Virus record (IMG/VR): IMGVR_UViG_3300046522_000173
Location: 20,274 to 84,273 of that record
Strand: one strand, 5' to 3'
DNA length: 64,000 nt
Source of the DNA: a virus
Lineage: Duplodnaviria > Heunggongvirae > Uroviricota > Caudoviricetes
Shown: one piece after another, positions 4,350 through 21,921 of the stretch
Position numbering within the stretch: the stretch's first letter is position 1
Layout of the letters: each line of letters starts with the position of its first letter
Translations under genes and position numbers: made by a program
Notes under the pieces: model-generated
Seen by the model: only the letters and a program-made list of their open reading frames with translations
Database searches by the model: none
Told to the model about the DNA's origin: nothing

Positions 4350-4350
4350 T

Positions 4351-4812
4351 TTATTTCTTCCTAAACGATTTCATCTGCTCCCTAATTCGTAGGGCTTTTG
4401 CAAGCTTGTCAGCCTCATCTTCCACTTCATCTTCTTTGCGTTCAGGTGTGTAAGGCGCTGGACACCTGATGTCTTTTGCTTTAGAGTACTCAGAACAATA
4501 TGCTTCCGACATTTTGCGGAGCATCTGCTTCTCGAACAGTGTTAGTTCTAGCTCGTTAACTTCTATGAAGCTTTGAATTTCTTGCCAGGACAACGGGATT
4601 AATCCGTAACCTGTTTGAGAACATTGGCCCGACCTAAAAAACAACGCCTGTAGGTGTAAAAAAGCCGGATGAATTTCTGGCAGATTTACCTCTACAGGCG
4701 CTATTGGCGCGCCTGCTGAATCTTCAGGCGAGTCTGAATCAATTTTTTCACGTACTAGAGGCGCACCTGTTCGGATTGCCTCTAGGCGGCTCATCTTTTG
4801 TTTGTCAGGCAC
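4351..4812 (-). CDS. tail assembly chaperone, gpT-like segment (expressed as a G-T fusion by a -1 frameshift)
   Basis: ORF lies in the -1 frame relative to 4863..5264. Its frame stays open upstream through the stop of the gpG-like ORF, and it sits immediately before the tape measure gene. Confidence 0.45.
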   Translation of the reverse strand: MPDKQKMSRLEAIRTGAPLVREKIDSDSPEDSAGAPIAPVEVNLPEIHPAFLHLQALFFRSGQCSQTGYGLIPLSWQEIQSFIEVNELELTLFEKQMLRKMSEAYCSEYSKAKDIRCPAPYTPERKEDEVEDEADKLAKALRIREQMKSFRKK

Positions 4813-4862
4813 ACACCCTAGGTATGCGACCTGACGGCACCACAGGAGGAGCTCTCCTTCAA

Positions 4863-5264
4863 TTATTTCAAAAAAGCGCCGAAGCCCGATCCGATAAGCT
4901 CGCCAATCTGTTCACGAATCCACACAAAACGGTCATCCGAGTACACAGTGCGGAACGCATCAGGCGTGTCAACTTTCTTACCTGCGAAATCCATGTTGGT
5001 AATCTCAACAGAGATAGTGGTCAAGAATTCAACATTCTCTTGACGGGCTTGTTCTGGCGAAGGCTTCTTACCGCCGCGTTGAGCGTCACGCTTCATCATT
5101 GCATTCACGGCGCGTTGATACGAAGGGGAAGCCTTGCCCTTCAGGACAATCTCAACTGGCAGAGTTTCTTCTGCATCTGCAAAGAGAGGCAGGCCAGTGC
5201 CGGGGTGATTCAGTTGAAAGCTGGCTTGTTCTTCGAGGGCGAGGCTGGAAAGATCAAAAGTCAT
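4863..5264 (-). CDS. tail assembly chaperone (gpG-like)
   Basis: 133-aa acidic protein between the tail tube gene and the tape measure gene, with a slippery site at its 3' end. Confidence 0.5.
   Translation of the reverse strand: MTFDLSSLALEEQASFQLNHPGTGLPLFADAEETLPVEIVLKGKASPSYQRAVNAMMKRDAQRGGKKPSPEQARQENVEFLTTISVEITNMDFAGKKVDTPDAFRTVYSDDRFVWIREQIGELIGSGFGAFLK
4866..4872 (-). promoter_or_regulatory. -1 programmed ribosomal frameshift slippery heptamer T_TTT_TTG at the end of the gpG-like ORF
   Basis: Minus-strand sequence GGC GCT TTT TTG AAA TAA; a slip on T TTT TTG enters the gpT-like frame (..R F F E I I E G E..), which has no stop. Confidence 0.45.
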
Positions 5265-5275
5265 GGTAGAGTTCC

Positions 5276-6250
5276 TTAAGTTATGTTAGTGTTGTTAAGT
5301 TGATTGGAGCTATCTTGCTCCTTTGTTTGTGCTGCTATTAATTCTTCGATGCGGTTGAGGGGGGAGGCTAGGTGTACGTCGTAGAAGCATTCTGTGGAGC
5401 CGTCAAAGCGTTCCTGCGGTTGCTTGTGCTGTGAGCGCAACTCTCTAAGAATCTCGGTCTCTATGGCACGAGGAATAAACCCTTCATCAAACACGTATTC
5501 TTTAAGAATATTAAAAGTCTTACCTGACTCGCGGGAGACCGATTGGCAGCGTTCTTTTGCGTCGAAATTTGTTATGCCTACTTTCACCAAATCTCGTTCC
5601 GTGAGAACGTACAACTTGCCGGGGAGGCTATTTTTATAGCCCGCAACCGCACAGTCAGGGCAACCTCTACCTGCGAGATGAGAGGATGGCTCTTGCCAAA
5701 AGAATCCGTGTTTAGTACAGTAGATTTCAACCTTCTTGTGGGTGGTCTCGTACTTTACTCGGGAGTAGTCATACCTCCCTGAGTGAACCCTGTCAGCATC
5801 TTTTATGAACTCTTCGCCGGTCTTCCTGCAATTTTGCCCGTTAATCTCGTGGGCACATTCCTTGCAAATAGTCTTACTGTGGACGTGATTGCTGACAGTC
5901 TGCTTGAACCATCCGTGCTTCTTACAGAATATGTCTATCTTGGACTCTTTATTTTTGTAACCCAAGACATCCTTGTACAGGTAAGTATCTCCATGAACAG
6001 CCCTAATTGCTTCTCTTACTTGCTCTTCAGATTTTCTCGTCTTGCTGTGCGCAGTAATCTTCCCGCACTCGGGACAGCCGCGACCCGTGAGGTGACTCCC
6101 AGGAGTAGTCAACCATGTTTTATGTATAGGGCACGAAATTAGAACTTTTTCATTTACTGCCTTATACACCACATGCTCGTAACTGTACTTGTCTCCGTGT
6201 ATCGCAACAGCTTGCGCAATAAATTCTTCAGTGGTTTTCTTCTTTGCCAT
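5276..6250 (-). CDS. T5orf172 (GIY-YIG superfamily-like) putative homing endonuclease with three N-terminal CxxH/CxxC zinc-ribbon repeats
   Basis: Three approximately 55-aa repeats (HGDKYSYEHV..C..HG.F..P..HL.G.GCP.C) followed by a C-terminal LYVL..VKVGIT....R......F...GSTECF block. Paralog of 19520..20770, inserted inside the tail gene cluster. Confidence 0.6.
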   Translation of the reverse strand: MAKKKTTEEFIAQAVAIHGDKYSYEHVVYKAVNEKVLISCPIHKTWLTTPGSHLTGRGCPECGKITAHSKTRKSEEQVREAIRAVHGDTYLYKDVLGYKNKESKIDIFCKKHGWFKQTVSNHVHSKTICKECAHEINGQNCRKTGEEFIKDADRVHSGRYDYSRVKYETTHKKVEIYCTKHGFFWQEPSSHLAGRGCPDCAVAGYKNSLPGKLYVLTERDLVKVGITNFDAKERCQSVSRESGKTFNILKEYVFDEGFIPRAIETEILRELRSQHKQPQERFDGSTECFYDVHLASPLNRIEELIAAQTKEQDSSNQLNNTNIT

Positions 6251-6357
6251 GTATCCCTTTCTTAAAGACTCTAAAATTTTTAGAACGTTTAAGAGAGGGA
6301 TTGACAGTCCCGTACCTCTTACTACTTCTTTACAGGGGGCGTCTCACGACGTACCTC

Positions 6358-6384
6358 TTCAAACAAGAGGACCGAAGTCCTCCT
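6358..6384 (-). terminator. hairpin (GAGGAC-ttcg-GTCCTC) followed by TTGTTTG after the tail tube gene
   Basis: Stem-loop plus a T-rich tract read on the minus strand; probably a partial terminator. Confidence 0.35.
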
Positions 6385-6391
6385 AAAACTG

Positions 6392-6838
6392 TTACGCTTC
6401 TACAGTAATAATTTCGTCATCAACGTCAATAGTGATGTCCATCTCCAGGATGCTATCGGCTCCCGAAATTGTGGTGCTCGCGGAAGAAATAATGCCCGTT
6501 CCAAAATCAGTCTCGCCAACCAAAGTTGGGTAAACAACCTTGAATGCTCGCGGAGCACGATCTTTGAATGCAGCGCGCAGCGCGTCAATATCGGCACCAG
6601 CATGGCGCGCGACTTTGAGTGTCATTTGACCAAAATCTTGGCTGCCGCCCCGCTTGGTGACTCGGCCCGTGCTCACGTCGGTGAACGAAACCACTTGCGT
6701 CTTGCCACCGAGGCTACCCATATCGGAGACCTCGGCCACTTGAATCCAGCCCGTGATCGCCTCAAACCCAGTTTCATCGTGCGTGGTAGGCAGACTCGGA
6801 GCGATCCACAGCGTTGTCGTAGCAGATGTAAATGCCAT
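6392..6838 (-). CDS. major tail (tube) protein
   Basis: 148-aa protein in the position upstream of the G/T chaperones; the translation has a beta-rich tail tube character. Confidence 0.5.
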   Translation of the reverse strand: MAFTSATTTLWIAPSLPTTHDETGFEAITGWIQVAEVSDMGSLGGKTQVVSFTDVSTGRVTKRGGSQDFGQMTLKVARHAGADIDALRAAFKDRAPRAFKVVYPTLVGETDFGTGIISSASTTISGADSILEMDITIDVDDEIITVEA

Positions 6839-6926
6839 TTGTATTTCCTTTAAAAATTAATTAAGATGCTTGTGATACGACTCACGCCGTATTCGTTGGG
6901 TGAGCGTTAAAGCTCTTGACGAGTTG

Positions 6927-7319
6927 TCAGAGTTCCTGACGATATCTAACTCGTACAGCAGCCACCCTAAAGTTCCCATCACTCATAGCTGGGCTAACAA
7001 TCGGAGGCTGCTCTACCGAGAATGTTTGAAAGAGGCTCTTGCCAGCCACGGGGAAGAGTGCTACGATGGCACTTGTCAGCGCTTCCAACTGCTTCATCCC
7101 TCGACCTTCTGGTACGGCTACATTCACTTGGAAGGTACCGTAGACACGCTGCCTCGTAGCATCCACCGTAGCGTTGATAGCCGTGTTGGAGAGGAATAGC
7201 ACTTCCAGGAAAGGTGCATTGACAGGCTTTGTGAAAGGCACGCCCTCGTATGCTATTGGGAGAGACTCACTTGCTGCGAAGGCTGTAATCCTTGTTTCTA
7301 CTTCTTGTCTGATGTTCAT
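6927..7319 (-). CDS. tail terminator-like protein
   Basis: 130 aa, immediately upstream of the tube gene in the late operon. Confidence 0.35.
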   Translation of the reverse strand: MNIRQEVETRITAFAASESLPIAYEGVPFTKPVNAPFLEVLFLSNTAINATVDATRQRVYGTFQVNVAVPEGRGMKQLEALTSAIVALFPVAGKSLFQTFSVEQPPIVSPAMSDGNFRVAAVRVRYRQEL

Positions 7320-7762
7320 TTCAAGATGGCCTTCATAGCGTTGTACGAAACCTCAACAGGATGATAAGCTTTCCTCATACCTGTCCAAGTCCAACCTGTC
7401 TCAGGGTCTTTGCCAGCAGGCCAAGAAGCATACTCAACCCTGAACGCATAATTTAGATTGTTGGACAGAGATACAAAACCATCCTTCTTGAAGAAGGTAT
7501 TAGCACTCTTGACAATGCTGTCAATCCTAGCTAAGCTGTCACTGCCATCACTCGTGTTAGTCGTAGTAGACGTATCAAACGAGTTGACAGCAGGGAACCA
7601 GTTAGCTACGAAGTGCCCTGCAACATAAGGGCCATCGCCTACGTGCGGAGAGTTATTAACAATCTTGGTGAAGTAGGTGTGAGCTACGTTAGTAATCTTG
7701 AAGTTTACTTCGGTTTGCACTCTTGTGATATTCTTCTTCAGACTATCTAAGAAGCTTCCCAT
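7316..7762 (-). CDS. neck / tail completion-like structural protein
   Basis: 148 aa; assigned from gene order in the head-tail joining region. Confidence 0.35.
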   Translation of the reverse strand: MGSFLDSLKKNITRVQTEVNFKITNVAHTYFTKIVNNSPHVGDGPYVAGHFVANWFPAVNSFDTSTTTNTSDGSDSLARIDSIVKSANTFFKKDGFVSLSNNLNYAFRVEYASWPAGKDPETGWTWTGMRKAYHPVEVSYNAMKAILK

Positions 7763-7782
7763 GTGCTCTCCTTTAGAACAGA

Positions 7783-7811
7783 ATTATAGCATTGAAGGGG
7801 AATGTTGTCAA
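7783..7811 (-). promoter_or_regulatory. sigma70-type promoter (cgtaagaa-TTGACA-N17-TATAAT), internal to the late operon
   Basis: Perfect -35 and -10 hexamers with a 17-nt spacer on the minus strand, preceded by the recurrent CGTAAGAA element. Confidence 0.5.
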
Positions 7812-7814
7812 TTC

Positions 7815-8261
7815 TTACGAAGCTTTCTTGAATACATAAGAATTGCTAATCAGCGTCTGTGCAACGCCCTTTGCGTCAAGCATCTGCACATCGTAATAGA
7901 AGAAACCTGTACGAGACATATTCTCTTCACTTGGAGTGAACGAGACAATCCCTGTTAGGGGGTTGCTCACTACACCAATTAGCTTATACAGGATATTGGC
8001 CTCTTCGTTAGTCGGCTTTGTCGAGTAGAGTGTGAACACAAACTTGCACCGAGTAATATCAGCTACATGCCCAGTTGAGTTGTCAAACACAATGAACGAC
8101 TCAGTGGAAGTGTCTCCTGCCGTCCTTATGAGTTGCTTTGTGCTAGAGTCTTGCGGAACAGTACGCAACACAAGTGTAGGTGGAGGGGGGATAACAGGGA
8201 GGGAAACAACCTCCCTTTCGGGAAGCGCCTCCCTCACAATTACTGTGCAGGGAATTGCCAT
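7815..8261 (-). CDS. hypothetical structural protein
   Basis: 148 aa, translationally coupled downstream of the 1344-aa protein. Confidence 0.4.
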   Translation of the reverse strand: MAIPCTVIVREALPEREVVSLPVIPPPPTLVLRTVPQDSSTKQLIRTAGDTSTESFIVFDNSTGHVADITRCKFVFTLYSTKPTNEEANILYKLIGVVSNPLTGIVSFTPSEENMSRTGFFYYDVQMLDAKGVAQTLISNSYVFKKAS

Positions 8262-11200
8262 TATTGCTGCTCCATATCCAGATACACAGTACGCTCATCA
8301 ACACGTGCCGGAGTAGATGCTGTGGTAATCTTGCAAGTAACTGTTGCTTGACTTCCCGTGCCACCCGACACAAACACTGTTGTCTTATTGCCTGTGGCAT
8401 AACTGCCTGCATCATCCACACCACTCAACGTAAACGTCACGGAAGCAATCGCAGGCGAGCCCATATCAGCGAGCCACGCAGACCAATCGAATGTGATGTC
8501 GATGGTGGAGTTCGGGTCTTTAGAACCGTGAGGCTTCTTAGGGTCGTTGAGATTCCAGAACTTCCCTCCAGTGAACACAGGTGCGATTGCTTGGACGGCC
8601 ACCGTACGTGCTGCACTTGGTGTGAAGCTCGCCGTTGCAGGAGTCGCAGCAGGTGTCGTCACAGTTGCTACACCGCTCTTGCTAGTATCCGCAGTGCTAG
8701 TGGCAGTCACAGTGATTGTTTGCGACGACGATGTAGCAGCCGGTGCTGTGAACAAACCGGAAGAACTTACACTGCCCGCGCTTGCCGTCCATGTAACAGA
8801 TTGCGATGGAGAGTTTGTTCCTACCACTGTTGCTGCGAATTGCTGTGTTGCGCCACCCACCACCGTGGCCGTGCTCGGAGACACACTCACACTAGAGACT
8901 GTTGCCACTGCCGCAGGTACTGTGACAGTAGAAGTGTTCGACTTGGTAGAGTCTTGAACACTCGTTGCGCGCACAGTGACTGTTTGAATACTTGTAGTAG
9001 CTGCCGGTGCGGTAAACAGGCCCGAAGAGTTAATAGTGCCAGCCGTTGTCGTCCAGGTTACACTCTGTGAAGGCGAGTTAGTCCCTGTAACTGTCGCAGA
9101 GAATTGTTGTGTGGCTCCACCATTCACTGTTGCAGAAGTGGGCGAGACACTTACACTTGTCACTGTTGGAACAAGAGCAGCAATCGTTACAGTTGCCGTT
9201 CCAGACTTAGTACTATCTGCTACACTGGTTGCTGTAACTGTAATAGTCTGTGCAGAGGTAGTTGCTGCTGGAGCCGTGAACACACCACCACTTGTAACCG
9301 ATCCTGCGGTTGTGGACCAAGTAACAGATTGCGACGGAGAGTTAGTACCATTAACCGTAGCAGTGAATGTTGTAGAACCTGTCGCCGTACTTGGAGAGAC
9401 TGTGACACTAGATACTATAGGTACGGCTGCTGCAATTGTTACTGTCGCTGTGCCGGATTTAGAAGTATCGAATGTACTCGTCGCCGTAACTGTAATGGTC
9501 TGAGTAGAGCCTGTGGCAGCGGGTGCAGTGAACACACCTCCGCTTGTGATCGTGCCACCTGTCGCAGACCATGTTACACTTTGTGGTGGCGAGTTTGTGC
9601 CGGTTACAGTGGCAGTGAATGTTGTCGATCCGGTTGCTGTTGTGGGTGAAACTGTGACGCCGGAAACTGTGGCACTTGCGCTAGCTGTAACCAACTCGTT
9701 TTCAGCAACCATTGGCAATGGAGTCGCACCATTGCCATAGACAGGAGTGCCAATATCAGGGGCGTTGCCAGGGAGGTACTTGACTACAACGGATGAACCT
9801 AGTGCGCGGTCGCACGTAAGCGTAATATGTGTAGCGTCTGTACGAACAGCGGAGACAACACTTGCAGTCCCTGTAGTGTCCGATACAACAAATCCTGTGA
9901 TACTACTCGTTGGTGTGAAATCAGTACTCGTTCCACGGTGCGCGATAGTGGCTACAACAGTGCTGCCGTTTACTACCAAGGATGTGATCTTCGGGCCGCG
10001 CTGATAAACACCAGAAGCTGCTATTTCACCCCAAACATACCTAATACGTTCAGTGCTTCCGTAGATGCCTGCTGTGTCAAGGTGGATGCCATCACCACCG
10101 ATGGTAAAATCTAGGTTCTGAACATGGTAGACGTTCGGGAGGTCTCCGGCTTCGCTCTCTGCGGTATGCACCCACTCGCACCGCTGCGAGAACTGTTCGG
10201 CGGTCTGCTCAGTCGTGGAATACGCCGTGCGGCGGTTCATGCCGGAAATCAGTACCGGGAGCGTCGTGTTGTTCCCTGCCAGTGTGCGCAGGTTGGAAAT
10301 CAACAGCTTAATACGGTCAAGATGTACGGTTTTAGAGGTGACAATCGTTCCCGCTGTATCGTTCGACCCCAGCGAGATAAATGCGCCAGCAAGGGCGTTT
10401 CCTGCGTTCGCTACCGACGCAACGAGTTTCACCCAAACGTCATCGCCAGAATTGAGCCAGTTGCCGTAAGTGGTTCCGCCAACGCCGCGAGGAAGTGCTG
10501 CTGTTACAACACCTGTCTTCCCTGCGATGTACTCCATCATCATGGAAGCTGGAGTTTTGTAAGCCGCGATAACGGACCAACCGCCCTCGTTAACGTAGCT
10601 GGTGATTTCGTTATTCGGGCCACCTGGGTACTCCCAAGCTTGTCCCATCCAAGCACCTGCCGAGGATGACCCTAGGAAGGCGATAATATCACCAACACCC
10701 CAGCGGTTACTATCCACAGCGGACGTGGAGAGCACAGTGCTAGCGCCGTCCTTGGAGCGAACAGCGATGCGATACTTTTTAGAGCCTTGGGGGATAGAGG
10801 GTGTGGCAGTCCACGTTCCGTCGTTGTTGATGGTTGCACTAACATCAAACCATGCTTTTGCAACAGTGCTGTCCGAGTAGGTAAGCTGTGCCTCAATTTT
10901 AGCTGGCTTCGTGCCAGTGTATGTACCCGACAAAGGAACATTGGCCGAGCCGTTAGCCCGCTGGAAAATACGCTCGTTAACTGGGGGAACAACAGTCACG
11001 GTAGGTGCAACGTTCGCTACAACACCTCCTGCACTGGTGGCAGATGCTGTACCTTGGCCATTCGTCGCGATCTGGCGTACAGCAAGGGTCTTGCCCACGT
11101 CTCCACTTACGGGAGTGTAGGTAGCCGAGGTTGCTCCGGCGATATCCGTCCCATCGAGCACCCATTGCTGTGTGCTGGTGATTGGTGCTGTCCCTGTGAC

Positions 11201-12295
11201 GCTAGCCGGAGTGTAAGCGAGGGGAGTTCCTACCTGGGGCGTTGCAGCAAGAGTGGGTGTGCCAGAAATTGTTGGTGGTGCTGCATTAACTGCTGCCGTA
11301 ACAACGACACCTGCACTAGAAGAACTGACAGTGTTGACAGTACCAGATGTAGTGTTTGTGGCGGTTTGCCTAACCTTGAGGGTTTTTCCGGCATCACCAG
11401 TGACAGGTGTGTATGTGGAGGAAGTCGCTCCGCTGATTGCCACGTCGTCTAGCAGCCACTGTGTAGTAACAGTGGGGGTTGGTGTGCCAGTGACAGTTGC
11501 AGCGGTGAACGACGTGGAAACACCAACCTGGGGCGTTCCGTTGATTACAGGTGCCTGCGTAATAGCTACTGGTGTGTCTGTCGGCGCTACATATCCATAA
11601 CCTGCACTAGGGCCATCCGGCAGCGTCGTGGTATTGGCTATTACTGTCATGGCAGACGGGCCGCGATCTTGGTAATCGGAACCATTACTCATGCGGAGAT
11701 ACCATGCAGGGGTGTAGCCCAAGTCCGCGAGCTGCATGCCGTAGGCCAGCTTAGCGATCTCGAAGTCAGTCAGGGCGCGATCAACACGGAACACACGTTC
11801 CATAGCTTCGTCCATTCTGCGGTCGCCGTTACGGTCGCCTATGACGAAGTAACCGGAGTTACCTGGGCCGTCGAGCGCCGTGGTAATAGCAAAGGAACTG
11901 GTGCTGGTCTTGACTGCAGACCCGTCTGTGGGGGCGGTGGTAAGCACAGGGCAATACTTACACACTAGCGCGTTGTCCTTGCGCTGGAGAATGCAAAGAT
12001 ATGCCTTGTTGGCTTCAATCTGAGGATTGAAAGTGACCGAGGCATTAGGTCCACCAGCCGTATCAATATAAGCGCCGAGAGTAGCGGGAGCGCCTCCCAA
12101 CAGCACGAGGCTTAACGAACCAGCGGATTGGAAACCTCCACTAGATACGATGTACTGAGGACTCGACGTGAACGTGCCGTTCATGATCAGCACAGCACCC
12201 ACCGTGAAGTCCGCATTGGGGTAGGTCAGGGTAGCGTTGTCCGCTATCTTCAGCGTGGAGGCGACAGCAAAAGCGCCTTTAAAATCAATACTCAT
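8261..12295 (-). CDS. 1344-aa multidomain neck/fiber-like protein: N-terminal ConA-like lectin domain, two Ig-like repeats, SGNH/GDSL-type esterase domain, five Big_2 repeats, C-terminal domain
   Basis: Uninterrupted ORF. SGNH esterase blocks are present (GDIIAFLGSSSAG, ISLGSNDTAG, GGDGIHLD), followed by five tandem approximately 85-aa Big_2-like repeats (VTVSP..AT..QF.ATV.GTNSPSQSVTW..). It lies between head-closure and tail-completion genes rather than after the tape measure gene. Confidence 0.8.
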   Translation of the reverse strand: MSIDFKGAFAVASTLKIADNATLTYPNADFTVGAVLIMNGTFTSSPQYIVSSGGFQSAGSLSLVLLGGAPATLGAYIDTAGGPNASVTFNPQIEANKAYLCILQRKDNALVCKYCPVLTTAPTDGSAVKTSTSSFAITTALDGPGNSGYFVIGDRNGDRRMDEAMERVFRVDRALTDFEIAKLAYGMQLADLGYTPAWYLRMSNGSDYQDRGPSAMTVIANTTTLPDGPSAGYGYVAPTDTPVAITQAPVINGTPQVGVSTSFTAATVTGTPTPTVTTQWLLDDVAISGATSSTYTPVTGDAGKTLKVRQTATNTTSGTVNTVSSSSAGVVVTAAVNAAPPTISGTPTLAATPQVGTPLAYTPASVTGTAPITSTQQWVLDGTDIAGATSATYTPVSGDVGKTLAVRQIATNGQGTASATSAGGVVANVAPTVTVVPPVNERIFQRANGSANVPLSGTYTGTKPAKIEAQLTYSDSTVAKAWFDVSATINNDGTWTATPSIPQGSKKYRIAVRSKDGASTVLSTSAVDSNRWGVGDIIAFLGSSSAGAWMGQAWEYPGGPNNEITSYVNEGGWSVIAAYKTPASMMMEYIAGKTGVVTAALPRGVGGTTYGNWLNSGDDVWVKLVASVANAGNALAGAFISLGSNDTAGTIVTSKTVHLDRIKLLISNLRTLAGNNTTLPVLISGMNRRTAYSTTEQTAEQFSQRCEWVHTAESEAGDLPNVYHVQNLDFTIGGDGIHLDTAGIYGSTERIRYVWGEIAASGVYQRGPKITSLVVNGSTVVATIAHRGTSTDFTPTSSITGFVVSDTTGTASVVSAVRTDATHITLTCDRALGSSVVVKYLPGNAPDIGTPVYGNGATPLPMVAENELVTASASATVSGVTVSPTTATGSTTFTATVTGTNSPPQSVTWSATGGTITSGGVFTAPAATGSTQTITVTATSTFDTSKSGTATVTIAAAVPIVSSVTVSPSTATGSTTFTATVNGTNSPSQSVTWSTTAGSVTSGGVFTAPAATTSAQTITVTATSVADSTKSGTATVTIAALVPTVTSVSVSPTSATVNGGATQQFSATVTGTNSPSQSVTWTTTAGTINSSGLFTAPAATTSIQTVTVRATSVQDSTKSNTSTVTVPAAVATVSSVSVSPSTATVVGGATQQFAATVVGTNSPSQSVTWTASAGSVSSSGLFTAPAATSSSQTITVTATSTADTSKSGVATVTTPAATPATASFTPSAARTVAVQAIAPVFTGGKFWNLNDPKKPHGSKDPNSTIDITFDWSAWLADMGSPAIASVTFTLSGVDDAGSYATGNKTTVFVSGGTGSQATVTCKITTASTPARVDERTVYLDMEQQ
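8650..9690 (-). repeat. five tandem approximately 258-bp coding repeats (Big_2 domain repeats inside 8261..12295)
   Basis: Periodic near-identical protein segments. The antisense plus-strand pseudo-ORFs with repeating VAVTVIV motifs are a consequence of the repeats. Confidence 0.7.
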
Positions 12296-12484
12296 TTATA
12301 ATCCTTCTTTAAGCCGCTGCGTAATAAACTGGAAGATTTCGTTATTTGACTTCCCAGTCACATCCTCGGCAAAGATAACAATCGTCTTGTTATTAGCCCG
12401 CACAACAATCATATCAGCGTCAGGGTGCTCAGCTTCCGCTCTAATGTCTACTATCCACTCGTCAATCTCCTGCTTTGTAGTCAT
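12296..12484 (-). CDS. hypothetical small protein (62 aa; ORF track gives 12296..12526, internal ATG at 12484 overlapping the upstream stop as ATGTCA)
   Basis: Start chosen at the ATG coupled to the stop of 12486..12884. Confidence 0.4.
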   Translation of the reverse strand: MTTKQEIDEWIVDIRAEAEHPDADMIVVRANNKTIVIFAEDVTGKSNNEIFQFITQRLKEGL

Positions 12485-12485
12485 G

Positions 12486-12884
12486 TCATTCCCTAACGAA
12501 CAACTCGTACAGCACACATCCTGCATCTGTCATAGATGGGTTATACTGCTTGAGCGTGATAATCTTGTACACCTTGTCGCCAAGTTTGAGTTTGTCACGA
12601 TTGGGGAGCAGATGTGGCAAAGGCAAGCCTGTCTCAGTTTTATGCGGAGGCTGCACAAACACTTGCTTGTCGCCGGATTGAATGAGGCTAGTGCCAGATG
12701 TGCCCAATCCTTGCTTCTTATCGAGATAATCGAAGAACATCGCGTTCACTCTGTAGTCAGTAGTGGAGACAACATTCTGAGAAGTTTCAGGGTCGTATTG
12801 CTCGCTAGTGGCTACAACAATGTACGCTGTAGTGCCGAAGGAAGCCATCATGTCCGCTACAGATTCATCGAACAGGCTAATCAT
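12486..12884 (-). CDS. head closure / connector-like protein
   Basis: 132 aa; assigned from position after the major capsid gene. Confidence 0.35.
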   Translation of the reverse strand: MISLFDESVADMMASFGTTAYIVVATSEQYDPETSQNVVSTTDYRVNAMFFDYLDKKQGLGTSGTSLIQSGDKQVFVQPPHKTETGLPLPHLLPNRDKLKLGDKVYKIITLKQYNPSMTDAGCVLYELFVRE

Positions 12885-13270
12885 AGCGGTTTAATCCATT
12901 CGTCAAAGCACAGTTCCTTGTCCCAGTTCTTAGTGAAGCGTACAATTGGGGAAGGTTCACCAGTGCCGCTGTAGGGGAGGGGGCTGATGTCGCTGATATT
13001 CGGGTCCTTCAGAAGCATCTCTACATACTGGCGGTATTGCGAGAATTGCTGATTGCCATAAACCGTAAGAGTGTTCAAAGATTGCTGACTCTTGAAGGCA
13101 AGCTGTCCAAGAATGTACATTGCGCAAATCCTGGTTGCTTTCTTGAGATTGCCGTTTGCTTCGGTGAGAGCTTGTTCGTACACTTCGTCAGAGAGTAGTT
13201 GGAGGTCTCTGGTGTCTCCTACGCGGATTCGAAGTAGGCCGGTTGGTGTTGAGAGGTCAAGAATTGCCAT
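12881..13270 (-). CDS. head-tail adaptor-like protein
   Basis: 129 aa, first gene after the major capsid gene. Confidence 0.35.
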   Translation of the reverse strand: MAILDLSTPTGLLRIRVGDTRDLQLLSDEVYEQALTEANGNLKKATRICAMYILGQLAFKSQQSLNTLTVYGNQQFSQYRQYVEMLLKDPNISDISPLPYSGTGEPSPIVRFTKNWDKELCFDEWIKPL

Positions 13271-13294
13271 GCTTACTCCTTTTAGTATTCTTAC

Positions 13295-13322
13295 TAAAAC
13301 ACCCTCCGAAGAAGGTGTTTCG
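13295..13322 (-). terminator. hairpin (AAACACC..ttcg..GGTGTTT) immediately after the major capsid gene
   Basis: 7 to 9-bp stem with a TTCG loop; weak U tract; probably an attenuator. Confidence 0.35.
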
Positions 13323-13339
13323 ATCAGAATGCTATCTGA

Positions 13340-14383
13340 TTAGTTGCTCGACGTAACTTTGATGATCGATGCAGGGCGGGTTGCGAAGAACAGTGGTGCT
13401 GCTTCAAGTTCCAGCTCTACGTACTCATCTTTAGGATCGACGTAAGTTTTCATGTACAGCTCTTGTCCAGGCTGGTTCGCGCCAGACATCTTAGCCGAAG
13501 GGCCGTTGAAGCCACGGAACAGGTCGTTCACGCCGCGAGCAAAAGCGATACCAGTGCTATCAGCGAAAGCAACTTCCGACGAGCCGGTTGGCAGATTGAA
13601 CGTTGCGTCGTACGACACGAACTTGATGCCCCGATGCTCAAACACGTCCATGATGCCCCACTTCATGTAGTCGGTCAGGTCGTCGCGCAGTACTTGTTTG
13701 CCGCTGTTCACGTAGAACTGGTAAGCATTCTTGATGCTTGCATGCGAAATCAACTTGTCGAAGAACACTGGATCGACCAGCACTTCCACACCAGAGATCG
13801 CGCCGCCGTTCATGACGTTCTTAGCAATCTTGGTCTTCAGTTGACGGATGATAGCGTCAACGTTAGTGGTAGAGGTGCCCAGCAGGAAGTCACTAGTATC
13901 TTGTGTGATACCAAACTCCGAATACATGTCAGCCATCACAGTACCGTCTGGGGTCTTGAACACGCCCTTCAGTGCTTGCAGCTTCATGTACTCTTGGGTT
14001 TGATCCCAAGCCATGCGCATATCGCCCAGCTTCTCAGCAGTGGCGTGTGCAATGGTTTCTTCATCGGTACGACCAACTTGACGATGGCCCTGGATGTCGT
14101 CGCCGGTCAGACGGTCTTCGTGTTTGAAGTAAGCCAGTTTCAGGGCGAAGGTATCGGCCTTGCGCTCTTTACCTTGAGTAGCAGCTTTACCGCCACGATT
14201 CACCTGCGGCAGCAGAGTGGTGGTGTTGTAGTCGCGGTCGAAGATGATAGCGGTTTGGCTGGTCGATTTGACGTTGAACAGGTTCAGGCTGTTGATGTAG
14301 CCGTATTGCAGAGGCATTTGGGTGATGCCATCAACAAACTCAGTGGTCTTGAAACTGTTGAAATAGTCGCGGATGATAGTCAT
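13340..14383 (-). CDS. major capsid protein (HK97-fold type)
   Basis: 347 aa, in the protease-scaffold-decoration-capsid gene order, followed by a hairpin. Confidence 0.6.
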   Translation of the reverse strand: MTIIRDYFNSFKTTEFVDGITQMPLQYGYINSLNLFNVKSTSQTAIIFDRDYNTTTLLPQVNRGGKAATQGKERKADTFALKLAYFKHEDRLTGDDIQGHRQVGRTDEETIAHATAEKLGDMRMAWDQTQEYMKLQALKGVFKTPDGTVMADMYSEFGITQDTSDFLLGTSTTNVDAIIRQLKTKIAKNVMNGGAISGVEVLVDPVFFDKLISHASIKNAYQFYVNSGKQVLRDDLTDYMKWGIMDVFEHRGIKFVSYDATFNLPTGSSEVAFADSTGIAFARGVNDLFRGFNGPSAKMSGANQPGQELYMKTYVDPKDEYVELELEAAPLFFATRPASIIKVTSSN

Positions 14384-14401
14384 TGTAGTGTTCCTTACTT
14401 A

Positions 14402-14797
14402 TTAAACTTGTGCACGGATGTGGATGTTCTTAGCGCGCAGGGCGTTTTGAACGATGGTCTGGTTAGCACCGGAGACGACATCCTTGTAGACCAGGCCTTT
14501 ATCGACAACACCTGCGTGACCAGTGCGCAGCACAACCAGTTGGTAATCACCAGCAGCCAGCGACGGCACATCAACAACGGTGTCGATCAGAACAACAACG
14601 TCAGCATTCAGAGTAGCCACATCAGCATTGGCAACCCACTTGTATTTGCTAGTGCCGTCATATTGCAGCACAGCACCCACATCCATGCCAGCCGAAACCG
14701 TGACGGTAACAACCTTACGGCACACACCCTTGTCAGCCATTTCTTCAAAAGCCAGAACGCCCGACAGCTTATTCCCACGCGAAGCAATTTTGCTCAT
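14402..14797 (-). CDS. head decoration-like protein
   Basis: 131-aa beta-rich protein between the scaffold and major capsid genes. Confidence 0.4.
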   Translation of the reverse strand: MSKIASRGNKLSGVLAFEEMADKGVCRKVVTVTVSAGMDVGAVLQYDGTSKYKWVANADVATLNADVVVLIDTVVDVPSLAAGDYQLVVLRTGHAGVVDKGLVYKDVVSGANQTIVQNALRAKNIHIRAQV

Positions 14798-14810
14798 TTC
14801 AATTCCTTAT

Positions 14811-15317
14811 TTACTTAGTCTTGATAAATTTGTTGAAATGCACAGGCTTCTTCTCCTCTTGGGGTTTGGCTTGGGCATCTACACCAGTTTCCGTGAACAG
14901 TTCCGACTTAGCTTCTGCTTCCATGTTGGTTGCCATAGCACCCAGCACAGCGTCAAATGCTACGTCGTTCAGTTCCTTCGTTGCTTCCATCAGCGCAGTA
15001 GCCTTCACGTCACCAACAGTCTCAACAATCTTTGCCATACGGGCATCCATCTTTGCTTGCAGAGCAGCAGCTTCAACAGTAGCTTTCTCTTCAGCGACAG
15101 CAGCCAGCTTGGCGGTGGCTTCTTCCAGTGCCTTGTTAGTGGCTTCCAGGTTCTCGGACATAGAGGCCACCAGAGCAGTTTGTTCTGCGAAAGAGGCTTT
15201 CAGTTCCGAGAGTTCTGTAGCCATTGCTTGCACTTCCAGCGCCGGGGCGTTGATAGTTCCTTCAATAGTCATTTCGACCTCTTCCTTGTTAAAATACTTT
15301 TGCAATTGCTTCAGCAT
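14811..15317 (-). CDS. scaffolding protein
   Basis: 168 aa, Ala/Glu-rich coiled coil, downstream of the protease gene. Confidence 0.55.
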   Translation of the reverse strand: MLKQLQKYFNKEEVEMTIEGTINAPALEVQAMATELSELKASFAEQTALVASMSENLEATNKALEEATAKLAAVAEEKATVEAAALQAKMDARMAKIVETVGDVKATALMEATKELNDVAFDAVLGAMATNMEAEAKSELFTETGVDAQAKPQEEKKPVHFNKFIKTK

Positions 15318-16159
15318 TACGATTTTCCTTTATGCTTTTCGGCTACGTATGCCGAGAATTGTTTGTGATCCATAACTTTGTTCACGAGGCCGGTTTCCAG
15401 GGCAGCATCTGCATGGAACATCTTTGCATCCCAAGACAGAATGTCGGCTACAGGGATGCCTGTGTACGAGTGAACGTGCTGGGCGAACAGGTTGCCAAGG
15501 CGGGTCACTTCGTCCTGCATCTCAGCAAGGAACTCTTTGGAGAACGAGCCGTCTTCTGCGAAAGGGGTTTTGCCAGGAGTGCTGGAAATGTAGATTGGCT
15601 TGAGGCCAGCCATTTCCATTGCTTTGGAGCGGTCTAGCAAACTTACGACGCAACCCACCGAGCCGGTTTGAGCGTCAGGATGGATAATCACTTCGTCAGC
15701 AGCGATGTTGAGTGCCAGAGAGGCAGAGGCAGACATCGTGTCAATGTACGAGTACCAAGTAACACCAGCTTCGTCACACATTGCGCGAAGGTCGTTCGCG
15801 GTGGAGAAGCAGTGACTCGCTTGTCCGCCAGGGCTGGAGTGCACAGTGATGAGCGTTGTGATACCATCGTCAATCAGCATCTGCGCTTGTTCAAGGATGC
15901 CTTGATAGCTACAGCCAGTGATGCCGCCACATGCACCGAGGATTGGCTTATAGGACAAGGCTCCATCGACTTGAAGCTCCCCAATCTTTTCAAGCTTCTG
16001 AGGCTTGACAGGCTCCTTATCCTTCACTACAATCGTAGACGAGAACTCAGGAGAGTTACGAGCGTTGATGTAGTCTAGAAGGTTAGTGGCAGCTTCGGCT
16101 GTGATGAGGTGCGGAGTGTTGTATAGTGACGATGCAAAACGAAAAAGGCTATGTGCCAT
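15317..16159 (-). CDS. prohead protease, peptidase S49 (SppA/ClpP-like) family
   Basis: 280 aa with S49-like motifs (TVHSSPGGQAS, MSASASLALNIAADEV), between the portal and scaffold genes. Confidence 0.65.
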   Translation of the reverse strand: MAHSLFRFASSLYNTPHLITAEAATNLLDYINARNSPEFSSTIVVKDKEPVKPQKLEKIGELQVDGALSYKPILGACGGITGCSYQGILEQAQMLIDDGITTLITVHSSPGGQASHCFSTANDLRAMCDEAGVTWYSYIDTMSASASLALNIAADEVIIHPDAQTGSVGCVVSLLDRSKAMEMAGLKPIYISSTPGKTPFAEDGSFSKEFLAEMQDEVTRLGNLFAQHVHSYTGIPVADILSWDAKMFHADAALETGLVNKVMDHKQFSAYVAEKHKGKS

Positions 16160-16169
16160 ATGTGTGTCC

Positions 16170-20770: not shown

Positions 20771-21921
20771 TGACGTTCCTCTCTACTAGGTTAAATGGTG
20801 TGGCTAGGCGAAGAGTAGAGCTTCGCCAGGAGGATCAATCCGTTCGCCACGTTGAACTTATAACAAACAACAAAAAGCCTGCCAGCATCCCTGCCGACAA
20901 GCCTCATAAGAATTGGTGACGCACCAGCACTCAACCATCCGTACGTCTTAGTGACCTTAGAGCCACCCTCTCCGCTCTTGCCGCTTTCGCAGCTATTGCT
21001 CAATGGAGCTTGAGTCCCGCGAGCAAATTCTATGTACGAATGACTAGGACTATCCTAGAACTTTGGGCTTGTCACCTTGCGTCTAATTCCGCCACCATTC
21101 GTTTGTTACGAGTGTTTGTGTCAGCCCTCGTCGGCTTTTGTGACCTCGACAGTAGTGCTACAACCAGTAAGCTTGTCTTACAACCAGTGAATTCTGTTCG
21201 GCCTGGAATTCCACCAGACTCATTAGCCTCTTCTCGAAGCCTCGTCAGCAGCAACGCTAACAATCCGCAGGTAGGGGATTCTTTAAAATTCCTATTGACA
21301 GCATCTGCTGCCCTTGCTATGATTCTTCACATGAACTGCTAAGACGTACTTGGCCCTGTCTTAGAAAACTTAACCTGCAACAATAAAGGAATAGCGATTG
21401 TTTGCCGGGGGAATTTCTTTGAGAGAAACTTCTGCCTAATGAAGAACAGTTCTGCCAGAGGCCGCCGAAAAGCGGCTTTTGTGCTGGTGCTCTCTGTTGG
21501 ATTTTAACCAACGCGGGATTTCTCCTCCGGGTTACAAAGCCGGTGCAATCGGACGGACTATGCGAAGAGAGCAGATACCCAAACCGTGCAAACAATGCAG
21601 AGGGTTTGGGCGTATGTTTTCAAGGCGGCTCAACTCGTACAAGCGTCAGAGAGGAGGGGCAATGGCCCTGTAGAGGAACCGCCTTGAAAACAGCCTCGTA
21701 AGAAGCTGTGTGCCAATTTTTGGACAGGCGTGGCTTGCCTGAAAGTTGGTGCAGGAGAATCCCCGCTAGAGCTATGTCGTAGTCTTCTTATAGCGGAAAA
21801 TTCAGGTAGGTCTCATGGACCCTGCTCTCCCGTCACTCTCCCTTCCCACAACACCGCAGTCTTCTGCGCACTACCAACAAAAGAATTGTAGCAGAACTTG
21901 TGCTTCTTGTCAACTCTTACG
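20771..21921 (-). other. 1.15-kb ORF-poor structured region (candidate leader, ncRNA or packaging-site region)
   Basis: Only short low-complexity ORFs. Contains a 13-bp long-range inverted repeat GTTTTCAAGGCGG/CCGCCTTGAAAAC (21616-21628 and 21679-21691), a 9-bp stem ACCCAAACC/GGTTTGGGT, tandem 10-bp direct repeats TACAACCAGT at 21159-21168 and 21179-21188, and a plus-strand terminator-like hairpin GCCGC-cgaaaa-GCGGC-TTTT at about 21461-21480. Confidence 0.4.
21884..21912 (-). promoter_or_regulatory. consensus sigma70 promoter cgtaagag-TTGACA-N17-TACAAT firing into the ORF-poor region and the endonuclease/terL genes
   Basis: -35 TTGACA and -10 TACAAT with a 17-nt spacer on the minus strand, directly after the terS-like stop codon. 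Confidence 0.55.

What the first reader, a model, noticed from the sequence alone, without database searches (positions are those of the whole stretch)
8261..12295. 1344-aa lectin/SGNH-esterase/Big_2 protein encoded inside the head-tail connector gene cluster
The largest protein after the tape measure protein is not downstream of the tape measure gene, where fibres usually lie. It sits between head-closure genes (12296-13270) and tail-completion/terminator genes (6927-8261), the position occupied by neck passage structure (collar or whisker) genes in some siphophages. It combines an N-terminal ConA-like lectin domain, two Ig-like repeats, an SGNH esterase domain with intact blocks I, III and V (GSSSAG, GSND, DGIH), five tandem Big_2 repeats and a distinct C-terminal domain. 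A neck-attached carbohydrate esterase suggests receptor deacetylation or glycan binding by a collar structure rather than by tail-tip fibres.
Basis: partly seen in the sequence, partly recalled or inferred. Interest (0 to 1): 0.55.

Follow-up and report, generated by a model that had tools for sequence, protein, structure and literature searches.

The report
Phage appendage carrying a sugar-deacetylating enzyme
This uncultured phage encodes a 1344-residue virion appendage with a sugar-binding-type tip, a sugar-deacetylating enzyme, a stalk and a small ring-forming anchor, and it most likely hangs from the neck rather than the tail tip; the parts are all known kinds, but this combination and position have not been described.

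Summary
The ORF is real: 8261-12295, minus strand, 1344 aa.

- **Residues 1-238:** ConA/LamG/pentraxin-type jelly roll, shown by fold only.
- **239-432:** two Ig repeats.
- **433-874:** three-domain carbohydrate O-acetylesterase of the SASA/CE20/SIAE type. Its catalytic blocks are invariant in 15 relatives of 35-53% identity.
- **875-1215:** four Big_2 repeats, not five.
- **1231-1344:** the "distinct" C-terminal domain belongs to Pfam Gp77. This is the small Ig-like fibre-tail adaptor that rings the head-to-tail adaptor of podophage GP4.

Relatives carry the same parts as separate adjacent genes (head, stalk, anchor). I therefore read the Gp77-like end as the virion anchor and the lectin-like/esterase end as distal.

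In every siphophage locus examined the gene lies in the head-connector module and never after the tape measure gene. In HK97-like phages the Gp77-like module abuts the adaptor gene. This supports a neck appendage (about 0.5) but does not prove it: actinophage Gp77-like genes lie among tail-tip genes.

The family is small and known only from metagenomes. I rate it a new variant of a known kind, of moderate interest.

The parts
8261..12295 (-). Whole gene: 1344-aa appendage protein, called X in this report
   Evidence: ORF list and translation. Identical protein P0001 occurs on two metagenome contigs. SD-like AGGA lies upstream of the ATG. The stop overlaps the next ATG.
11582..12295 (-). Residues 1-238: ConA/LamG/pentraxin-like jelly-roll domain, a putative carbohydrate-binding tip
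   Evidence: AF2 model, pLDDT 89.5. Foldseek PDB hits to pentraxins, LamG modules, the NanA CBM40 and CBA120 TSP2, E 2e-8 to 1e-4. No Pfam or PDB sequence hit. In 64 of 66 long relatives it is coupled to the esterase; permuted esterase-LamG-LamG forms exist.
11000..11581 (-). Residues 239-432: two Ig-like repeats (SCAB-Ig type)
   Evidence: Pfam PF16709 and phrog_1407 hits. Self-alignment of the two repeats. Most relatives have one repeat or none.
9674..10999 (-). Residues 433-874: three-domain carbohydrate O-acetylesterase module (beta-sandwich, SGNH/SASA catalytic domain at about 531-765, beta-sandwich)
   Evidence: Pfam SASA, 25.8 bits against a cut-off of 24.8. Profile hits to 2apj and 1zmb. 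AF2 model, pLDDT 92.6. Foldseek hits: XAC1771 CE20 acetylesterase E 2e-20 with TM 0.65, mammalian SIAE, the cyanopodophage Pan3 tailspike.
10664..10666 (-). Codon of Ser544, predicted nucleophile (block I, G542-S543-S544-S545)
   Evidence: G-S-S is invariant in 15 relatives. In the model it sits between strand 532-542 and helix 544-551. Coordinates checked.
10358..10369 (-). Block III G643-S644-N645-D646 (Asn645 predicted oxyanion-hole residue)
   Evidence: Invariant in 15 relatives. Aligned to GESD of 2apj and 1zmb.
10082..10093 (-). Block V D735-G-I-H738 (predicted catalytic Asp and His)
   Evidence: Asp and His are invariant in 15 relatives. Aligned to the D-x-x-H of 2apj and 1zmb.
8651..9673 (-). 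Residues 875-1215: four tandem Big_2-type Ig repeats (the stalk)
   Evidence: Pfam Big_2 and I-set hits. A repeat HMM finds exactly four copies, E 1e-38 to 1e-45. No DNA-level tandem repeat. The homologous stalk is a separate gene after X in L007, L010, L018 and L021.
8264..8605 (-). Residues 1231-1344: Gp77-like Ig-like domain (putative ring-forming virion anchor)
   Evidence: Pfam PF23148, E 1.6e-13, 51.4 bits against a cut-off of 27. The family profile hits PDB 8jou_D, which is the GP4 93-aa protein. Stand-alone homologues lie next to X in L003, L009 and L010.
12881..13270 (-). Neighbour: 129-aa head-to-tail adaptor of Ounavirinae type
   Evidence: phrog_1732. Homologous to the gene after the capsid gene in Pseudomonas phage M1 and Felixounavirus SP116, which is the gp9 adaptor position in Bas63 (PMC12609058).
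12486..12884 (-). Neighbour: 132-aa head closure protein (Hc1)
   Evidence: phrog_161, E 2e-8. Homologue in L010.
7815..8261 (-). Neighbour: 148-aa orphan, translationally coupled to X, role unknown
   Evidence: TAATG overlap. Only itself found among 5.8 billion proteins. Weak phrog_1084 and sub-threshold BppU_N hits. No relation to the Gp77 profile.
7316..7762 (-). Neighbour: 148-aa tail completion / Neck1 protein
   Evidence: phrog_169. Homologue in L010.
6927..7319 (-). Neighbour: 130-aa tail terminator
   Evidence: phrog_179 and Pfam PF13554, E 2e-19.

Best explanation
X is a structural appendage of the virion built as head, stalk and anchor.

- **Anchor.** The C-terminal Gp77-like Ig domain is the anchor. 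By analogy with GP4 gp77 and the Bas63 collar, about 12-15 copies would form a ring round the head-to-tail adaptor / head-closure junction, that is, a neck collar.
- **Stalk.** Each copy projects outward a stalk of four Big_2 domains.
- **Head.** At the end sit a SASA/CE20-type O-acetylesterase and, beyond two Ig domains, a LamG/ConA-like domain that probably binds carbohydrate.

The whiskers would make reversible first contact with an O-acetylated surface polysaccharide (capsule, EPS or O-antigen). They would then remove acetyl groups. That would either release the virion so it can move inward, or prepare the polymer for a partner enzyme. This is a receptor-binding plus receptor-destroying pair, working like the viral haemagglutinin-esterases.

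**Shown here:** the domain identities, conservation of the catalytic residues, the fusion/fission of head, stalk and anchor, and the gene position.

**Inferred:** incorporation into the virion, ring formation, neck location, copy number, substrate and role in adsorption.

The confidence of 0.5 is for the whole statement including neck location. That X is a virion-borne carbohydrate esterase appendage I put at about 0.85.
For: 1. **Esterase.**
   - The Pfam SASA hit is above its cut-off.
   - The family profile hits 2apj and 1zmb with blocks II, III and V aligned.
   - A high-confidence model (pLDDT 92.6) matches the whole three-domain architecture of XAC1771/CE20 and mammalian sialate O-acetylesterase (E 2e-20 to 1e-18, TM about 0.6-0.65).
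   - GSS, GSND and D..H are invariant across 15 relatives at 35-53% identity.
2. **LamG-like fold.** The domain is tightly coupled to the esterase: 64 of 66 long representatives have both, and permuted domain orders exist. This fits a carbohydrate-binding partner, not an anchor.
3. **Anchor.**
   - Pfam Gp77, E 1.6e-13; the profile hits GP4 chain 8jou_D.
   - GP4 gp77 encircles the head-to-tail adaptor and holds the fibres (PMC11445570). The Bas63 collar is its structural homologue, sits at the adaptor/head-completion interface, and sends its N-terminus outward (PMC12609058). X has the same topology.
   - The domain is always at the extreme C-terminus, in 26-27 of 66-80 representatives.
   - Where it is absent, a stand-alone Gp77-like gene lies beside X in 3 of the 6 unfused loci searched (L003, L009, L010).
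   - The stalk is likewise a separate gene in L007, L010, L018 and L021.
4. **Position.**
   - X lies in the head/connector module in the window and in L001, L003, L005/6, L009, L010, L018, L019 and L020. It is never after the tape measure gene.
   - In HK97-like loci the Gp77-like module directly abuts the Phage_connect_1 adaptor gene.
   - L010 shares connector genes with the window and carries its cassette at the same site, between Hc1 and Neck1.
5. **Partner enzyme.** A PcRGLX-like, polysaccharide-lyase-like protein lies directly upstream of X in 7 loci. This points to polysaccharide processing.
6. **Precedent.** Virion-borne esterases of this fold are common in phage tailspikes.
Against: - No structural, proteomic or imaging data exist for this phage or for any family member, and no cultured phage carries the protein.
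- Gp77-like small genes of Mycobacterium and Gordonia siphophages lie among minor tail genes downstream of the tape measure gene. In GP4 the gene abuts tail-fibre genes. The domain therefore marks a fibre adaptor, not specifically a neck.
- In most relatives X follows the capsid gene, which also fits a capsid appendage.
- Three loci (L007, L018, L021) have no detectable Gp77-like module.
- The C-terminal profile shows no sequence relation to the presumed Felixounavirus collar gene.
- Carbohydrate binding by the LamG-like domain is untested.
Confidence: 0.5

Rival explanations
1. Capsid appendage. X is a Hoc-like or head-fibre decoration bound to the capsid shell. It would display Ig domains, a lectin-like domain and an esterase over the whole head, to hold the virion in polysaccharide-rich matrices.
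For: - In most relatives X lies directly after the major capsid gene, or between the portal and capsid genes.
- The head genes of the window are Ounavirinae-like. Ounaviruses carry a Hoc-like hexon decoration with Ig repeats (PMC12609058).
- Strings of Ig domains are typical of decorations (phrog_215).
Against: - No capsid-binding domain like that of Hoc or Hex-Dec is present. The N-terminus is a LamG-like jelly roll and the C-terminus is a Gp77-family domain.
- The only Gp77 member with a structure sits on the adaptor, not on the capsid (PMC11445570).
- In the window and in L010 the cassette sits between Hc1 and Neck1, not next to the capsid gene.
Confidence: 0.2
2. Tail-tip or lateral tail fibre encoded out of place. 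X joins the distal tail or baseplate through its Gp77-like domain and acts as an ordinary receptor-modifying side fibre.
For: - Gp77-like genes of actinobacteriophages lie among minor tail protein genes after the tape measure gene.
- In GP4 the gene abuts tail-fibre genes.
- Esterases of this fold are usually tailspikes.
Against: - In no siphophage locus examined is X downstream of the tape measure gene.
- The position in the head/connector module recurs across phages with unrelated connector genes.
- In HK97-like loci the Gp77-like module is contiguous with the head-to-tail adaptor gene.
Confidence: 0.15
3. Non-structural enzyme. X is a soluble or lysis-released esterase that strips acetyl groups from host or debris polysaccharide. 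It could limit superinfection or trapping of progeny, as proposed for the prophage NanS-p esterases. It would not be part of the virion.
For: SASA-type esterases also occur as non-virion prophage proteins (general knowledge; not tested here). No direct evidence of incorporation into the virion exists.
Against: - X is embedded in, and translationally coupled within, the structural operon.
- It carries a long Ig stalk and a domain homologous to a virion fibre adaptor.
- The N-terminal sequence shows no obvious signal peptide (by inspection).
Confidence: 0.07

Closest known systems
GP4 fibre-tail adaptor gp77 (Pfam PF23148, PDB 8JOU) and the structurally related collar/whisker complex of Felixounavirus Bas63 and Sf14
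   Same: The C-terminal 100-115 residues of X belong to the same Pfam family. In GP4 and Bas63 this small Ig-like unit forms a ring round the head-to-tail adaptor and carries fibres or whiskers. In Bas63 the outward extension leaves from the N-terminus of the ring domain, as it would in X (PMC11445570, PMC12609058).
   Different: In GP4 the adaptor is a separate 93-aa protein and the fibres are other proteins. In Bas63 the whiskers are small separate proteins threaded on a 'rope'. In X the adaptor is fused to a 1230-residue chain of folded domains that includes an enzyme. No sequence relation to the Felixounavirus collar gene was detectable. The host phage is a siphophage.
Neck passage structure (NPS) proteins of lactococcal 936-group siphophages
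   Same: These are neck collar-and-fibre structures encoded among head-tail connector genes. Their distal modules are carbohydrate-binding or esterase-like; groups F and G resemble the CE2 esterase 2waa (PMC6669499). The proposed role is the same: auxiliary glycan binding from the neck.
   Different: The NPS anchor is an N-terminal BppU-like beta-sandwich followed by a trimeric coiled coil. X has neither. X has its anchor at the C-terminus, Ig-domain stalks, and an esterase of the SASA/CE20 type with an intact triad. It is not homologous to NPS.
Phage tailspike and tail-fibre SGNH esterases (cyanopodophage Pan3 tailspike 9vyh; the Vi-phage, Pectobacterium-phage and Shigella-phage proteins listed in BFVD)
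   Same: They share the catalytic fold and sit on the virion to modify an acetylated surface polysaccharide.
   Different: They are encoded in tail modules, usually have N-terminal anchors and are often trimeric. X is encoded in the head/connector module, with a Gp77-like C-terminal anchor and a LamG-like partner domain.
Cellular carbohydrate O-acetylesterases XAC1771/CE20 and mammalian sialate O-acetylesterase SIAE
   Same: They have the same three-domain architecture (beta-sandwich, SASA-type SGNH core, beta-sandwich), TM about 0.6-0.65. The catalytic blocks are equivalent.
   Different: Sequence identity is about 11-15%. Block I reads GSSS rather than GQSN. The substrate is unknown. The module is embedded in a phage structural protein.
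Viral haemagglutinin-esterases (influenza C HEF, coronavirus/torovirus HE)
   Same: The functional logic matches: a lectin-type domain paired with an SGNH O-acetylesterase on the virion surface, acting as receptor binder and receptor destroyer (general knowledge; an analogy only).
   Different: No homology was tested or claimed. Domain order, fold of the lectin part, oligomeric state and host are all different.

Membership tests
SGNH hydrolase, SASA/CE6-CE20 clade (Pfam PF03629) | Sequence match above the curated cut-off | tested here: met
   25.8 bits against a cut-off of 24.8, so marginal. The family profile hits 2apj at E 3.5e-7 and 1zmb at 0.005. Precomputed PF03629 hits are listed for 13 of the relatives.
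SGNH hydrolase, SASA/CE6-CE20 clade (Pfam PF03629) | Conserved blocks I (Ser), II (Gly), III (Asn) and V (Asp-x-x-His) | tested here: met
   G542-S-S544, G604/G607, G-S-N645-D and D735-x-x-H738. All are invariant or nearly invariant in 15 relatives.
SGNH hydrolase, SASA/CE6-CE20 clade (Pfam PF03629) | Alpha/beta/alpha SGNH fold with flanking beta-sandwiches, as in CE20 and SIAE | tested here: met
   AF2 model, pLDDT 92.6. Foldseek: 7kmm E 2e-20 with TM 0.65; 8f9q/p/o/r at about 1e-18.
SGNH hydrolase, SASA/CE6-CE20 clade (Pfam PF03629) | Triad geometry and esterase activity | not testable with these tools
   Model coordinates are not exposed. No assay is possible.
Gp77 fibre-tail adaptor (Pfam PF23148) | Sequence match above the curated cut-off over the full domain | tested here: met
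   51.4 bits against a cut-off of 27, profile positions 1-83 of 84. The family profile hits GP4 chain 8jou_D at E 0.007 against the whole PDB; this is the 93-aa GP4 ORF.
Gp77 fibre-tail adaptor (Pfam PF23148) | Genetic linkage to fibre genes | tested here: met
   The domain is fused to X, or encoded beside it, in L003, L009 and L010. It lies beside fibre genes in GP4 and beside minor tail genes in actinophages.
Gp77 fibre-tail adaptor (Pfam PF23148) | Forms a ring round the head-to-tail adaptor | not testable with these tools
   Known only for GP4 (PMC11445570). No multimer modelling or imaging is available here.
Concanavalin A-like lectin/glucanase (LamG, pentraxin) fold | Jelly-roll beta-sandwich fold | tested here: met
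   AF2 model, pLDDT 89.5. 95 PDB matches at E<=0.001, including pentraxins, LamG modules and the NanA CBM40.
Concanavalin A-like lectin/glucanase (LamG, pentraxin) fold | Sequence membership of a curated family (for example Laminin_G_3) | tested here: not met
   No Pfam hit at E<=1. No PDB sequence hit with the family profile.
Concanavalin A-like lectin/glucanase (LamG, pentraxin) fold | Carbohydrate binding | not tested
   Needs a binding assay or a liganded structure.
Big_2 (Pfam PF02368) | Sequence match above the cut-off; tandem repeats | tested here: met
   25.5 bits against a cut-off of 22.8. Four repeats found by a repeat HMM.
Lactococcal neck passage structure (NPS) | N-terminal BppU-like collar domain followed by a trimeric coiled coil | tested here: not met
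   X has no BppU_N hit and no long helical segment. Only the neighbouring orphan has a sub-threshold BppU_N hit, E 0.036.
Hoc / Hex-Dec capsid decoration | Dedicated capsid-binding domain at one end of an Ig string | tested here: not met
   Both ends are assigned to other folds, LamG-like and Gp77-like. There is no Hoc-type hit in Pfam or PHROGs beyond generic Ig.

The most novel reading that the evidence does not exclude
X represents a portable three-part appendage cassette: a Gp77-like ring anchor, an Ig/FN3 stalk and a lectin-like/esterase head, often with a lyase-like partner. The cassette moves between unrelated phage lineages (Ounavirinae-headed, HK97-like and lambda-like siphophages, and SU10-like podophages). 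It can do so because a symmetry-mismatched ring round the connector needs few specific contacts. It would give siphophages a second, neck-located organ for binding and remodelling polysaccharide, working like a haemagglutinin-esterase. The same parts occur as one, two or three genes, which would document fibre evolution by fusion and fission.
Probability: 0.35. Interest if true: 0.65.

Novelty: new variant of a known kind. Interest (0 to 1): 0.5.

Why it matters
Host recognition by siphophages is normally sought at the tail tip. This family would put a catalytically competent sugar esterase and a lectin-like domain at the neck. Host-range prediction and phage engineering that look only after the tape measure gene would then miss a determinant.

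The family also gives a sequence-level rule: a Gp77-like domain, fused or adjacent, marks the virion-proximal end of a fibre. That rule can be applied to annotate uncharacterised large proteins in head/connector modules.

The head, stalk and anchor occur as one gene or as separate genes, which makes a clean natural series for studying how modular fibres assemble.

All of this rests on inference. No cultured phage carries the protein.

Tried and rejected
- **DNA search, X against 50,697 phage records:** no match.
- **tblastn of X against the same records:** only the Ig repeat hit Stenotrophomonas phages. No cultured relative exists.
- **Scan of 185,579 reference genomes with the esterase alignment:** no confirmed relative. 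The 15-sequence alignment was too divergent for the locus finder. A 4-sequence alignment found 5 viral contigs.
- **PDB sequence searches:**
  - The single C-terminal sequence gave only noise; the family profile was needed.
  - The N-terminal family profile gave only noise; the fold search was needed.
- **Major tail protein split by the HNH gene?** Rejected. The 148-aa protein covers the whole Phage_tail_3 profile.
- **Orphan 148-aa downstream gene as a collar protein?**
  - No PDB hit.
  - No homologue in 5.8 billion proteins (this spent one capped search for nothing).
  - No relation to the Gp77 profile.
- **Gp77-like profile against the presumed Felixounavirus collar gene:** no relation.
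- **DNA-level tandem repeats in the Big_2 region:** none.
- **Literature:** no paper under "fiber-tail adaptor" and none on the Pan3 tailspike. The GP4 paper itself (J Mol Biol 2023, 435:168258) is not in the library; it is known here only through PMC11445570 and PMC12609058.
- **Triad geometry:** model coordinates are not exposed, so it could not be measured.
Full report
**1. The observation**

The window holds an uninterrupted ORF at 8261..12295 on the minus strand, 1344 codons, starting with ATG.
- The chance of 1344 stop-free codons is about 1e-28.
- The ATG directly follows the stop of the upstream gene and has an AGGA 8-11 nt upstream.
- The TAA stop overlaps the ATG of the next gene as TAATG. 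The gene is therefore embedded in an operon and translationally coupled.
- The identical protein (P0001) occurs on two public metagenome contigs.

On one of those contigs (L004) the tape measure protein is 2011 aa. In the window it runs off the start (1-4349, minus strand).

**2. Surroundings**

Gene order on the minus strand is as follows.

| Window coordinates | Product | Basis |
|---|---|---|
| 16170-17654 | portal | |
| 14402-14797 | lambda gpD-like decoration (weak hit) | |
| 13340-14383 | major capsid protein | |
| 12881-13270 | 129 aa, phrog_1732 | |
| 12486-12884 | head closure Hc1 | |
| 12296-12484 | 62-aa unknown | |
| 8261-12295 | X | |
| 7815-8261 | 148-aa orphan | |
| 7316-7762 | Neck1 / tail completion | |
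| 6927-7319 | tail terminator | |
| 6392-6838 | major tail protein, full Phage_tail_3 | |
| 5276-6250 | HNH/DUF723 endonuclease | |
| 1-4349 | tape measure protein | |

The 129-aa protein is the head-to-tail adaptor. It is homologous to the gene that follows the capsid gene in Pseudomonas phage vB_PsaM_M1 and Felixounavirus SP116. That position is gp9, the adaptor, in the Bas63 structure (PMC12609058).

The head module is Ounavirinae-like: the capsid protein is 67% identical to M1, and the portal, protease and decoration proteins are also related. The tail is siphovirus-type.

**3. Anatomy of X**

(a) *Residues 1-238.* There is no Pfam or PDB sequence hit. A confident model (pLDDT 89.5) is a ConA/LamG/pentraxin-type jelly roll. 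It has 95 PDB matches at E<=0.001, including pentraxins, LamG modules and the sialic-acid-binding CBM40 of NanA.

(b) *Residues 239-432.* Two Ig repeats.

(c) *Residues 433-874.* An esterase module.
- Pfam SASA is just above its cut-off.
- The family profile hits the SASA/CE6-like structures 2apj and 1zmb, with blocks II, III and V aligned.
- The model (pLDDT 92.6) matches the entire three-domain architecture of the CE20 acetylesterase XAC1771 (E 2e-20, TM 0.65) and of mammalian sialate O-acetylesterases. It also matches the cyanopodophage Pan3 tailspike.
- The predicted catalytic residues are Ser544 (block I, GSSS), Gly604/607 (II), Asn645 (III, GSND) and Asp735/His738 (V, DGIH). All are invariant or nearly so across 15 relatives of 35-53% identity.
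- Such conservation argues for an active enzyme. The geometry itself could not be measured.

(d) *Residues 875-1215.* Exactly four Big_2 repeats, not five.

(e) *Residues 1231-1344.* Pfam PF23148 "Gp77, podophage GP4 fibre-tail adaptor" (E 1.6e-13, 51.4 bits, full profile length). A profile of this domain finds PDB chain 8jou_D. I verified that this chain is the 93-aa GP4 ORF lying next to the GP4 tail-fibre genes.

**4. The family and its modular logic**

X has full-length relatives only in metagenomes (P0002-P0016). No cultured phage carries it.

A profile of the N-terminal domain, searched against 1.84 billion representative proteins, found 81 clusters at E<=1e-30. Local HMMs on those hits gave the following.
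- 64 of the 66 long ones also carry the esterase.
- A few proteins have the permuted order esterase-LamG-LamG.
- The lectin-like domain and the esterase therefore form a functional pair. The N-terminal domain is unlikely to be a virion anchor.
- 26-27 representatives carry one or two Gp77-like domains, always at the extreme C-terminus.

Where the Gp77-like domain is missing from the protein, a stand-alone gene of about 100 aa often lies beside it:
- L003 12399-12722, directly downstream;
- L009 10065-10382, directly downstream;
- L010 10919-11215, one gene further on.

The stalk is likewise a separate gene in L007, L010, L018 and L021. For example, L007's 308-aa protein is 60% identical to X residues 1044-1126.

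X therefore equals head + stalk + anchor fused in one chain, and L010 encodes the same three parts as three genes. Such fusion/fission indicates that the parts assemble together. The Gp77-like part is the piece known elsewhere to sit on the virion.

**5. Where on the virion?**

*Published structures.* In GP4, 15 copies of the 93-aa Ig-like adaptor encircle the dodecameric head-to-tail adaptor and hold three sets of fibres (PMC11445570). [quoted passage not shown] The authors describe it as homologous to the GP4 fibre-tail adaptor. Its N-terminal extension leaves the ring outward and carries the whiskers (PMC12609058). X has the same polarity: ring domain at the C-terminus, everything else N-terminal to it.

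*Gene position.* Position was examined in 11 distinct loci.
- Between the capsid gene and the connector genes in HK97-like phages: L001, L005/6, L009, L018, L019, L020.
- Between Hc1 and Neck1 in the window and in its distant relative L010, which shares adaptor, Hc1, Neck1 and terminator homologues.
- Between the portal and protease-capsid genes in the lambda-like L003.
- After the capsid gene in L007.
- Upstream of the terminase gene in the SU10-like podophage L021.
- Never downstream of a tape measure gene.

In L005, L009, L019 and L020 the Gp77-like module is immediately contiguous with the Phage_connect_1 adaptor gene. Together these results favour a neck collar with whiskers.

*Counter-evidence.* Bona fide Gp77-like small genes of Mycobacterium and Gordonia siphophages (HMM E 8e-15 to 8e-9) lie among minor tail genes after the tape measure gene. 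The domain as such therefore marks "fibre adaptor", not "neck". L007, L018 and L021 have no detectable Gp77-like module. No sequence link to the Felixounavirus collar gene was found. I put neck location at about 0.5, capsid at 0.2, tail at 0.15 and non-structural at under 0.1.

**6. Likely mechanism**

The most probable function is auxiliary adsorption to an O-acetylated surface polysaccharide. The LamG-like tip would bind it and the esterase would deacetylate it. This is the logic of a receptor-binding plus receptor-destroying pair, as in haemagglutinin-esterases (an analogy from general knowledge).

Two results support polysaccharide processing.
- A PcRGLX-like, polysaccharide-lyase-like protein of 750-890 aa lies directly upstream of X in seven loci.
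- Esterases of this fold are common in phage tailspikes.

The substrate is unknown. The closest folds act on acetylated xyloglucan and on sialic acids.

**7. Comparison with what is known**

The nearest concept is the lactococcal 936-group neck passage structure. It has a BppU-like collar, a coiled coil and distal CBM or esterase-like modules (PMC6669499). X shares the idea but none of the defining anchor features, so it is not a member.

X is a member of the SASA-type SGNH esterases and of the Gp77 family. It has a ConA-like fold without sequence membership of any curated family.

The combination is undescribed: a LamG-Ig-CE20-like esterase-Big_2-Gp77 chain, anchored at its C-terminus and encoded in the head/connector module of siphophages.

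**8. Verdict**

I rate it a new variant of a known kind (virion-borne carbohydrate esterase appendage; collar/whisker-type anchoring) and score interest at 0.5.

Noticed in passing
window 1-7762 versus 12881-17654: Mosaic virion module. The portal, protease, decoration, capsid and adaptor genes are Ounavirinae-like: the capsid protein is 67% identical to the myovirus Pseudomonas phage vB_PsaM_M1. The tail genes are siphovirus-type (148-aa Phage_tail_3 tube protein, 2011-aa tape measure protein, no sheath).
   Followed up: partly
window 5276-6250 (-): A 324-aa HNH/DUF723 homing-endonuclease-like gene sits between the major tail protein gene and the chaperone and tape measure genes. It does not split the tail protein, which is full-length.
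   Followed up: partly
window 7815-8261 (-): A 148-aa orphan gene whose ATG overlaps the stop of X. It has a proline-rich N-terminus and a beta-rich C-terminus. It has no homologue among 5.8 billion proteins, only weak phrog_1084 and sub-threshold BppU_N hits, and no relation to Gp77. It could be a partner of X at the neck.
   Followed up: partly
L007 7394-9988; L009 4709-6979; L010 4113-6785; L018 6379-8985; L019 6409-8970; L020 5462-7885; L021 1193-3829: A conserved protein of 750-890 aa with a PcRGLX-like N-terminal RIFT-barrel domain (polysaccharide-lyase-like) lies directly upstream of the esterase gene in seven related loci. This suggests a two-enzyme cassette. The window phage lacks it at this site.
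   Followed up: partly
L015 6968-7264 (Mycobacterium phage Aegeus gp22); L016 6989-7276 (Gordonia phage Moosehead gp27); L017 7022-7294 (Gordonia phage Stultus gp36): Small 'hypothetical proteins' of actinobacteriophages belong to the Gp77 fibre-adaptor family (HMM E 8e-15 to 8e-9). They sit among minor tail protein genes, which offers an annotation for them.
   Followed up: partly
window 21485-21572 (-): A single tRNA-Thr (anticodon TGT) lies near the strand switch between the structural and early regions.
   Followed up: no
window 14402-14797 (-): A 131-aa protein upstream of the capsid gene is 47% identical to the annotated lambda gpD-like head decoration protein of phage M1. Its own Pfam HDPD hit is only weak. 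The capsid therefore probably already has a cementing decoration.
   Followed up: no
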